A DNA stretch of 64,000 bases from Octopus vulgaris (lineage: Eukaryota): assembly GCA_951406725.2 (NCBI GenBank), contig OX597816.1, forward strand, positions 52,080,001-52,144,000, written 5' to 3'. Made by a program: the position numbers and the translations under genes. The notes under the pieces are model-generated. The model was not told where the DNA came from and did not search any database. It saw nothing but the letters and a program-made list of their open reading frames with translations. Position 1 is the stretch's first letter. Each line of letters starts with the position of its first letter. Of the stretch, positions 38,725 through 40,298 are shown in pieces.

Positions 38725-40298
38725 GTATTGCATTATTTACCTTATTTACATTCGACGGATATTTGTCCTCACCATGTTTGTTGTTAATACAACCTTTCGG
38801 CTGATATACTCTCCAGCCTTCATCAAGTGTCTTGGAGAAATTTCGAGTCTTGGTTCTCATTCCTAAGGTATTTTTCGATATTATTATTATCATTATTATC
38901 ATCATCTTCATCATTATTATTATTATTAGTAGTAGTAGTAGTATTCAGGTCACTGCCTGGAATTGAACTCGAAATCTTGGGGTTAAGAGCGCGGGTTACT
39001 AACCCCAAGATTCCGAGATCGATTCCAAGCAGTGACCTGAATAATAATAATAATAATAATAATAATGATAATAATAATAATAATAATAATAATAATAATA
39101 ATAATAATAATGATAATAATGACAAAGCCCTGACCCATCAATGGTTAATGGCCTTTGGCTTAAAATCTGAAACAGAAGGATTTATCATAGTAGCTCAAGA
39201 TCAATGCCTACCAACAAGAAACTACCAGGCCAACATATTAAAGAACGGCAGTAGCCCAACATGTCGTGTATATCGACAACAAAATGAAACCATTGATCAT
39301 GTTGTCTCCAAATGCAGTCTTCTAGCGCCTACAGAGTACCTCAACAGGCATGATAGAGCTGCACAATATATTCACTGGGTAATTTGAAAAAACCTGGATT
39401 TGCTCCAAGAAAAAAAATGGTGGGAACACAATCCACCTCCAGTGCTTGAAAATGACCACATCTCACTCCTCTGGAACTTTACCATTCAAACTGGCAGAAA
39501 GATAGATGCAAATAGGCCAGACATCATATTGAAAGACTTCAGACAAAGAACATGCCTCCTCATTGATATGACTGTCCCAATCGATATAAACGTATCTGTC
39601 AAGACCTACCAAAAACTGAGCAAATATAAAGATCTTGAAATAGAAATCAGCAAAATGTGGAACCCGAAGACTAAAACAATACCTGTTGTCACAGGTGCCC
39701 TGGGAATGATAGCGAAAGGGGCTGATTGCTACCTAACTCAGATACCAGGAAACCCCAAAATGTCAGAAATTCAAAAGATAGTGCTCATGGGAACTGCTCA
39801 TATCCTACGCAAAATACTCTCTATGTAATCCCAAGGTTTAAAACTAACTTTTTTTCTCTCTTTTTTTTTATTTATTTATTAGACATTCACTAGTACAACA
39901 CCAAAAAAAACAAACAAATATATGGCACACTAGGCATAACAACAACGTGAACTTCCAACCTGTTGTCTCTTGAGGTCTCTGGGTGAGACTTGGAGTCAAC
40001 TTATACAAACATAAGCAAAAGTCAAACATAGAATAATAATAATAATAATAATAATAATAATAATAATAATAATAATGATAATAATAATAATAATAATAAT
40101 AATAATAATAATAATAATAATAATAATAATATCGAAAAATACCTTAGGAATGAGAATCCAGGTTCGAAATTTCCTCCAAGATACCTCATGAAGGCTGGAG
40201 CGTATATCAACCGAAACGAAGGTTGGAGGAAGATGAGGTCAAATATTTGTCAAATGTAAATAATGCACATAATTCTTCATCTCTTAAGTTTAGAACTG
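38725..40298. mobile_element. Hammerhead SINE-like element, locus 4: head-to-head inverted dimer with a Dong-like LINE nested in the right arm's (AAT)n
   Basis: Order: tail(-) 38725-38879, (ATT)n, head(-) 38944-38985 fused to head(+) 38981-39040, (AAT)n, LINE 39121-40032, (AAT)n, tail(+) 40131-40298. Confidence 0.85.
39121..40032 (+). mobile_element. 5'-truncated Dong/R4-clade element, subfamily C (zinc knuckle, RLE, 3' UTR)
   Basis: THQWL..GLKSETEGFIIVAQDQCLPTRNY..CRVY..ETIDHVVSKC..RHD, an in-frame stop at 39385-39387, then NRPDIILKD..IDMTVP..KLSKYKDL..GTAHILRKILSM*. Confidence 0.93.

What the first reader, a model, noticed from the sequence alone, without database searches (positions are those of the whole stretch)
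38725..39120. All four hammerhead-SINE loci are inverted duplications with different breakpoints
Seen: each locus has a reverse-oriented partial copy joined to the 5' side of the other copy. Breakpoints differ: within the tail (2325), at the head tip (~26856-26863 and ~28485) and mid-head (~38983). At locus 2 both arms share private variants (ACGAATG versus AGGAATG elsewhere; GTTGTTTTAAC versus GTTGTGTTAAC), so both arms came from one template. Established: 5' inverted partial copies are a hallmark of Penelope insertions and are unusual for LINE-driven SINEs. Inference: the inversion forms during integration, which independently supports PLE mobilisation.
Basis: partly seen in the sequence, partly recalled or inferred. 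Interest (0 to 1): 0.8.

Follow-up and report, generated by a model that had tools for sequence, protein, structure and literature searches.

The report
Penelope end repeat with tRNA promoter
These four back-to-back insertions are not a separate SINE but the end repeat of a common protein-coding jumping gene of the Penelope class, whose mirror-image layout is already known; the unusual part is that most copies begin just before a tRNA-type promoter, so the element is likely read by RNA polymerase III, which is untested.

Summary
Observation confirmed: 4 of 4 loci are head-to-head inverted pairs. But the 'SINE' is the pseudo-LTR (pLTR) of an autonomous Penelope/Poseidon element: upstream it runs into the GIY-YIG stop codon, downstream its hammerhead 'tail' is the start of the ~826-codon ORF. 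Of 80 consecutive genomic loci, 50 are inverted; 43 of these pair one long with one short 3' end; 28 of 51 tested pairs sit inside a target-site duplication (4.8% in shuffles). So the inversion arises at insertion, a Penelope trait published in 2013 and 2021. 'One template' is not general: arms are barely closer than unrelated loci (0.067 vs 0.071), and the locus-2 variant is shared in 0 of 12 other pairs. The less ordinary part: 38 of 57 arms reaching the head end within 20 nt around the tRNA-like start, 7-14 nt before an A box; the head outnumbers the spacer 60 nt upstream 6:1; the 2.6-kb unit has no TTTT on its sense strand (P about 0.01-0.07). Pol III transcription is inferred only. This scan noted the tRNA-headed pLTR before on other DNA of this genome.

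The parts
38719..38729 (+). Locus 4 left target-site duplication (11 nt, 10 of 11 identical to 40299-40309)
38730..38879 (-). Locus 4 inverted arm: ORF-start/hammerhead segment, short 3' end (unit position ~148)
38880..38942 (-). Locus 4 inverted arm: (AAT)n tract
38943..38985 (-). Locus 4 inverted arm: 3' half of tRNA-like head with B box
38981..38985 (.). Locus 4 inversion junction, 5-nt microhomology shared by both arms
   Evidence: read against the head majority
38981..39042 (+). Locus 4 forward arm: head lacking most of the A box
39043..39121 (+). Locus 4 forward arm: (AAT)n, left part
39122..40031 (+). Later insertion: 3' piece of an unrelated LINE (zinc finger and restriction-like endonuclease; R4/Dong-like label recalled), one in-frame stop
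   Evidence: zf-RVT E=2.9e-4, below Pfam cut-off
40032..40130 (+). Locus 4 forward arm: (AAT)n, right part
40131..40298 (+). Locus 4 forward arm: ORF-start/hammerhead segment (damaged), long 3' end (unit position 173)
40299..40309 (+). Locus 4 right target-site duplication
2212..2326 (-). Locus 1 inverted arm, unit positions 33-147, short end
2327..2594 (+). Locus 1 forward arm: triplet tract plus positions 1-172, long end, no head; 8-nt flank match, partly overlapping the arm end
26574..26855 (-). Locus 2 inverted arm: positions 1-148 plus ATT tract
26856..27290 (+). Locus 2 forward arm: head starting 7 nt before tRNA +1, AAT/GAT tract, positions 1-170
28212..28485 (-). Locus 3 head-bearing arm: positions 1-76 (3' end lost), ATT tract, whole head
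28484..28607 (+). Locus 3 second arm, positions 58-174, long end

Best explanation
The four loci are short copies of the end repeat (pLTR) of an autonomous Penelope/Poseidon retrotransposon, each inserted as a head-to-head pair that likely forms in one integration event, when the element's enzyme would prime two separate cDNAs, one from each cut target strand, on an RNA that likely starts at a tRNA-type (Pol III) promoter. Shown: the unit head-(AAT)n-hammerhead is the junction between the ORF's stop codon and the next ORF's first ~50 codons; pairs are bounded by target-site duplications; one arm ends at ~174 and the other at ~142-148; 5' ends pile up 7-14 nt before the A box. Inferred: the two fixed 3' ends are the two internal RT start sites shown in vitro for the anole Poseidon; each cDNA runs to the RNA's 5' end or stops earlier; the two are joined by microhomology or end joining. 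Because RT starts internally, the ORF-start site near the 5' end of the element's own mRNA gives exactly a 'head + AAT + tail' copy, so no separate SINE is needed. Least certain: that Pol III makes this RNA (about 45%).
For: Continuity with the endonuclease and ORF in many copies; 29-33% identity to the 836-aa anole protein over N-terminus and C-terminus; the 'tail' peptide matches the N-terminus of a 53%-identical relative. 50 of 80 loci inverted, 43 of 50 long+short. Flank match of 7 nt or more in 28 of 51 vs 4.8%. Neither arm type reaches further 5' (18 vs 17, 8 ties). A 59-nt internal ORF piece sits in the junction of a short pair (L012). 38 of 57 arms at risk end in a 20-nt zone, 10 of 19 in the next 19 nt, 3 of 9 in the next 496 nt; same in arms not facing another head (34 of 73 in the zone). 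Exact 16-mer counts: head 6,894, spacer 1,135, ORF past the tail 121. A box, 33 nt, B box match the SINE promoter consensus in PMC8969392 with one mismatch. No TTTT in 2,607 sense nt.
Against: No transcription start or polymerase was measured: the RNA runs are unstranded, follow copy number and show no start pile. The TTTT gap is modest (P 0.007 base shuffle, 0.02 synonymous shuffle, 0.07 Markov; GGGG is absent too), and some other LINE frames are also somewhat poor in TTTT. The head scores only 12 bits as tRNA; Rfam finds no hammerhead. 23 of 51 pairs show no clear duplication. Palindromic junctions and a small excess of shared variants also fit fold-back copying. No intact full-length copy was recovered.
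Confidence: 0.75

Rival explanations
1. A true SINE: solo head-tail copies are transcribed by Pol III on their own and are copied in trans by the Penelope protein, as an independent lineage.
For: Short copies dominate (head:spacer 6:1), start at the promoter and carry everything needed; pLTR sequences sufficed for trans-mobilisation in Adineta (PMC3846280). Locus 2, with two rare variants in both arms, could be a daughter of a diverged copy.
Against: Sequence is the same as the ORF-linked junction; no subfamily: 0 of 30 arms with the first variant carry the second, only 2 other copies genome-wide carry both; an ORF piece lies in one short pair's junction.
Confidence: 0.2
2. The pLTR holds an ordinary Pol II internal promoter, as in other Penelope-like elements; the tRNA-like stretch is a captured relic that merely lies at the start site, or the RNA is trimmed there.
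For: Start sites within the pLTR are described for Penelope and Chlamys (PMC8557442); an ORF needs translation, which suits a capped RNA (established knowledge); TTTT statistics are modest.
Against: Distance from the 5'-end pile to the A box fits the 10-15 nt given for SINEs; both boxes are intact in the majority; many ends lie up to 7-10 nt before tRNA +1, unlike a clean RNase P cut; other frames in this genome show as many or more TTTT than expected (352 vs 302).
Confidence: 0.35
3. The second arm is a fold-back copy: one cDNA self-primes and copies itself.
For: Shared variants at locus 2; excess of shared variants 10 vs 4.6; short junction overlaps in about 18 of 50 pairs (1-20 nt by BLAST ends); self-priming was proposed in PMC3846280.
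Against: Fold-back predicts that one arm type always reaches further 5'; found 18 vs 17. Many junctions join a head tip to unrelated positions of the other arm with no hairpin. 0 of 12 share the tested variant, though most such variants are later mutations.
Confidence: 0.25
4. Inverted pairs arise after insertion (second insertion into the first, recombination) or in assembly.
For: 23 of 51 pairs lack a clear duplication; Penelope proteins cut AT-rich DNA including their own pLTR (PMC11167929).
Against: One orientation only, long+short pairing in 43 of 50, duplications around the pair, diverged arms, joints in raw reads of another organism.
Confidence: 0.04

Closest known systems
Adineta vaga Pen2a/Pen2 and canonical EN+ Penelope insertions (PMC3846280; PMC8557442; passages seen)
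   Same: Inverted 5'-truncated pLTR at the 5' end, 8-10-nt duplication around the whole insert, ~30-nt extension on one arm only, pLTR containing the first codons of the ORF.
   Different: Those pLTRs have TATA/Inr-like or intron-linked Pol II promoters; no tRNA-like head is mentioned in the passages seen.
Poseidon_Ac (PAc) of Anolis carolinensis (PMC11167929, parts 1-2 of 4 read)
   Same: RT plus C-terminal GIY-YIG ORF of ~830 aa, hammerhead overlapping the ORF start, two internal RT start sites that define the two 3' ends, AT-rich targets.
   Different: PAc's ATG lies in the hammerhead core; here it lies ~35 nt upstream. No A/B-box head described. That protein P0034 is PAc itself is an inference from species and length.
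tRNA-derived SINEs (definition in PMC8969392, passage seen)
   Same: A and B boxes 33 nt apart, 7-14 nt from the 5' end, high copy number, duplications.
   Different: The unit is part of a protein-coding element, ends inside an ORF at fixed sites rather than in a tail, and inserts as inverted pairs.
Non-LTR retrozymes and non-autonomous PLEs such as MRC1 (bioRxiv 10.64898/2026.07.22.740005 part 1 of 5; PMC8557442)
   Same: Short hammerhead-bearing or 3'-end derivatives of Penelope-like elements.
   Different: Retrozymes are head-to-tail tandems; these are head-to-head pairs or solos, with no sign of an independent lineage.

Membership tests
Penelope/Poseidon PLE | Single ORF with RT and C-terminal GIY-YIG endonuclease | tested here: met
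   RVT_1 hit; alignment to the anole protein across RT end and endonuclease, E=7e-48; no Pfam GIY-YIG hit, so the endonuclease rests on the alignment and its motifs
Penelope/Poseidon PLE | Partial tandem forming a pLTR that holds the ORF start | tested here: met
   (L194, L201, L204)
Penelope/Poseidon PLE | Inverted 5'-truncated arm and one-sided ~30-nt extension | tested here: met
   50 of 80 inverted; 43 of 50 long+short
Penelope/Poseidon PLE | Target-site duplication around the whole unit | tested here: met
   28 of 51 vs 4.8% shuffled
Penelope/Poseidon PLE | Minimal type I hammerhead in the pLTR | tested here: inconclusive
   Core, helix II, helix I and palindromic minimal helix III seen by eye and helices I/II in the fold, as in PMC4209133; Rfam no hit; cleavage untested
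Penelope/Poseidon PLE | Placement in the clade by RT phylogeny | not tested
   Only similarity ranks
tRNA-derived SINE | A and B boxes near the 5' end | tested here: met
   tRNA model 12 bits only
tRNA-derived SINE | Non-autonomous family distinct from its partner except at the 3' end | tested here: not met
   The whole unit, head included, is part of the autonomous element; no diagnostic subfamily
tRNA-derived SINE | Transcribed by RNA polymerase III | not testable with these tools
   Indirect only; one search shows no start site
Non-LTR retrozyme | Head-to-tail tandem hammerhead units | tested here: not met
   Close pairs among 100 listed matches are minus-then-plus; census

The most novel reading that the evidence does not exclude
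This Penelope family has replaced its Pol II promoter with a captured tRNA promoter: Pol III reads the whole 2.6-kb protein-coding unit, which has been purged of TTTT terminators, and internal RT priming near the 5' end of that same RNA mass-produces SINE-like copies in cis. That would be a protein-coding retrotransposon run by Pol III, and a route by which an autonomous element gives birth to a SINE.
Probability: 0.35. Interest if true: 0.78.

Novelty: new variant of a known kind. Interest (0 to 1): 0.5.

Why it matters
The inversion itself is a published Penelope signature and adds little. Two things would matter. First, more than ten thousand copies give a natural record of the still unresolved Penelope integration cycle: long+short pairing, duplications around the pair and symmetric 5' reach favour two separately primed cDNAs over fold-back. 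Second, if the tRNA-like head is the working promoter, an ORF-bearing retroelement would be transcribed by Pol III and translated without a normal cap, and the line between autonomous element and SINE would blur; annotation pipelines would also miscount these copies as SINEs.

Tried and rejected
Rfam and ARAGORN on the window: no tRNA or hammerhead at threshold. The repeat finder was swamped by microsatellites. A subfamily carrying both locus-2 variants: not found. A pile of 5' ends at the predicted hammerhead cut (position ~89/90): 10 of 47 ends in 88-97, P = 0.06, not accepted. Duplications around solo copies: 6 of 28 vs 6.6% shuffled, boundaries often unknown inside AAT tracts, left open. 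Expression: no RNA holder listed; raw RNA reads of organism C are unstranded and show no start pile. Empty site for locus 1: none seen; contigs of organisms A, D and E join a flank to an arm, none spans the locus. A second Penelope family in this genome as a control: all 30 loci fetched were this family. An apparent in-frame stop in the majority sequence was an alignment artefact (10 nt missing locally). RNase P as sole source of the 5' ends: disfavoured, many ends lie before +1.

Full report
Setting. The window lies in a 2.8-Gb genome of 227 contigs. That it is an octopus is my inference from size, contig lengths and repeat content; no call names it.

Observation. The four loci are as described: a minus arm followed by a plus arm, 3' ends outward, breakpoints at 2326, 26856, 28484/5 and 38981-38985. 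Three details were missed. Locus 1 has no tRNA head. At locus 3 the head-bearing arm has lost its 3' end. At locus 4 the plus arm is split in its (AAT)n by about 0.9 kb of an unrelated LINE and ends at 40298; the whole pair is bounded by an 11-nt duplication with one mismatch (38719-38729 and 40299-40309).

What the unit is. Among the 30 best genomic matches to the tail, several carry endonuclease-coding sequence directly 5' of the head. A search from the RT end gave 30 loci, most running RT - endonuclease - stop - 30-nt spacer - head - (AAT)n - tail. A search from the ORF N-terminus gave 30 loci, in about half of which the tail runs straight on into the ORF. The ATG is at tail position 20, upstream of the hammerhead core, and the frame is about 826 codons. 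Natural open stretches hit RVT_1 and align to an 836-aa Anolis protein at 29% (N-terminus) and 33% (RT end and endonuclease); the tail's peptide matches the N-terminus of an unnamed relative that is 53% identical. So the 'SINE' is the pLTR of a Penelope/Poseidon element, head included.

Census. An 18-mer of the tail has 13,769 exact matches. Its first 100 matches on contig 1 make 80 loci after dropping 5 duplicate fetches of paired matches. 50 are inverted minus-then-plus, 29 look solo, 1 is complex. Needing an exact match favours two-armed loci; my arithmetic correction gives about 55%, and partners beyond the fetched 1.5-2.5 kb would be missed. In twelve blind 100-kb blocks there were 5 loci, 3 inverted, so four in this window is local enrichment. 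3' ends fall at two places, ~174 and ~142-148, and 43 of 50 pairs have one of each. A flank match of 7 nt or more surrounds 28 of 51 pairs tested (48 census, 3 window) against 4.8% in shuffled pairs; typical length is 10-13 nt. This is the layout reported for Adineta Pen2a (inverted pLTR, 9-10-nt duplication, 31-nt one-sided tail, first ORF codons in the pLTR; PMC3846280, passages) and for the class in general (PMC8557442, passages; PMC8969392, passages). For the anole Poseidon the two ends were shown to be two internal RT start sites (PMC11167929, parts 1-2 of 4).

One template or two. Over 40 pairs, non-CpG distance between arms is 0.067 and between loci 0.071; shared variants number 10 against 4.6 by permutation (P = 0.011, with locus 2 contributing 2). 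The first locus-2 variant has 127 matches against 10,389 for the majority form, the rate of ordinary mutation; in 29 loci fetched, 0 of 12 informative pairs share it and 0 of 30 arms carry the second variant, although 2 inverted pairs among the 100 listed matches do share it. Both variants together occur in 4 copies, 2 at locus 2. So locus 2 is a real but rare case, open to gene conversion. A single fold-back predicts that one arm type always reaches further 5'; the result is 18 versus 17 with 8 ties. I therefore prefer two separately primed cDNAs, joined where they stop; junction overlaps by BLAST ends are 1-20 nt in 18 of 50 pairs, the rest abut, have gaps or are complex. This step is inferred.

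The less ordinary part. Of 131 arms, 57 reach the A-box region; 38 end in the 20 nt around the tRNA-like +1, 10 of the remaining 19 in the next 19 nt, and 3 of 9 in the following 496 nt. A near-palindrome at the head tip could distort this, but arms not facing another head show the same pile (34 of 73, in a pooled set that over-represents long copies), with a left edge about 14 nt and a mode 7 nt before the A box. Genome-wide exact 16-mers: head 6,894, spacer 60 nt upstream 1,135, ORF just past the tail 121. The head reads A box, 33 nt, B box, matching the SINE promoter consensus and its 10-15-nt offset in PMC8969392 with one mismatch; as a tRNA it scores 12 bits. Some ORF-continuing copies begin at the same place (L201, L204). 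The simplest reading is that the element's RNA begins here, and that RT starting at the ORF-start site near the 5' end of that RNA yields the short copies in cis; a 59-nt internal ORF piece in the junction of one short pair (L012; 138 loci examined) fits this. The 2,607-nt majority has no TTTT on its sense strand (expected 4.6 by base shuffle, P = 0.007; 3.1 by synonymous shuffle, P = 0.02; 2.6 by a Markov model, P = 0.07), no site holds TTTT in more than 7 of 40 copies, and 90 other long frames in this genome show 352 against 302 expected. Against: GGGG is also absent, this is one family and one observation, and some other LINE frames are mildly poor in TTTT too. RNA reads of a related organism are unstranded, follow copy number and give no start site; they do show opposite-strand joints, and the family is present in several coded organisms.

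In print. Five searches bearing on a tRNA-headed pLTR or a Penelope-driven SINE and one on octopus SINEs gave no description among the listings; I saw passages of PMC6962438, PMC13282606, PMC4209133 and PMC9138309 and part 1 of 5 of the retrozyme preprint. Subscription papers, Repbase and Dfam entries and supplements were not seen, so the family may be catalogued there. Earlier notes of this scan reached the same pLTR and Pol III reading on other DNA of this genome; I consulted them after my own tests, and they are not independent evidence.

Verdict. The inversion is real, made at integration and already known for Penelope-like elements. The SINE label fails. The tRNA-headed pLTR with a matching 5'-end pile is a new variant worth a bench test. 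Interest 0.5.

Noticed in passing
window 39122-40031; similar frames at 5665-5973, 13755-14291, 60350-60706: 3' pieces of a LINE with zinc finger and restriction-like endonuclease, mostly next to (AAT)n tracts; at locus 4 it has inserted into the Penelope pLTR's own tract. R4/Dong label and TAA targeting are recalled; PMC13282606 lists Dong-R4 among recently active families.
   Followed up: partly
pooled loci, tail positions 88-99: Weak excess of 5' ends just after the predicted hammerhead cut (10 of 47 in 88-97, P = 0.06); a genome-wide count could show cleavage in vivo, which was not seen for the anole element.
   Followed up: partly
L017, L213, L284, L295 and window 38981-38985: Recurrent mid-head breakpoint at or near a 5-nt complementarity between the D-loop and anticodon-loop regions of the head.
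   Followed up: no
L278:2444-2803; L189, L202, L205: Arms that run from the tail into the ORF and then jump back to a tail copy, suggesting template switching or internal deletion between pLTR copies.
   Followed up: no
L292 and L293 (G000:C1 ~8.94 and ~9.05 Mb): Two near-identical long inverted insertions 100 kb apart with the same left flank: a segmental duplication, counted twice in the census.
   Followed up: no
window 38627-38726, 28897-29060, 38200-38280, 15735-16146, 59192-59706: Copies of other abundant tRNA-headed repeats, unrelated to this family; one abuts locus 4 on the left.
   Followed up: no
window 21319-21663 (-): A short frame resembling the N-terminal exon of a ligand-gated ion channel subunit (recalled resemblance), so some of the loci may be intronic.
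   Followed up: no
G000:C18 46.26-46.39 Mb: Seven same-strand matches to the ORF N-terminus at ~17-39-kb spacing: a large tandem duplication carrying the element.
   Followed up: no
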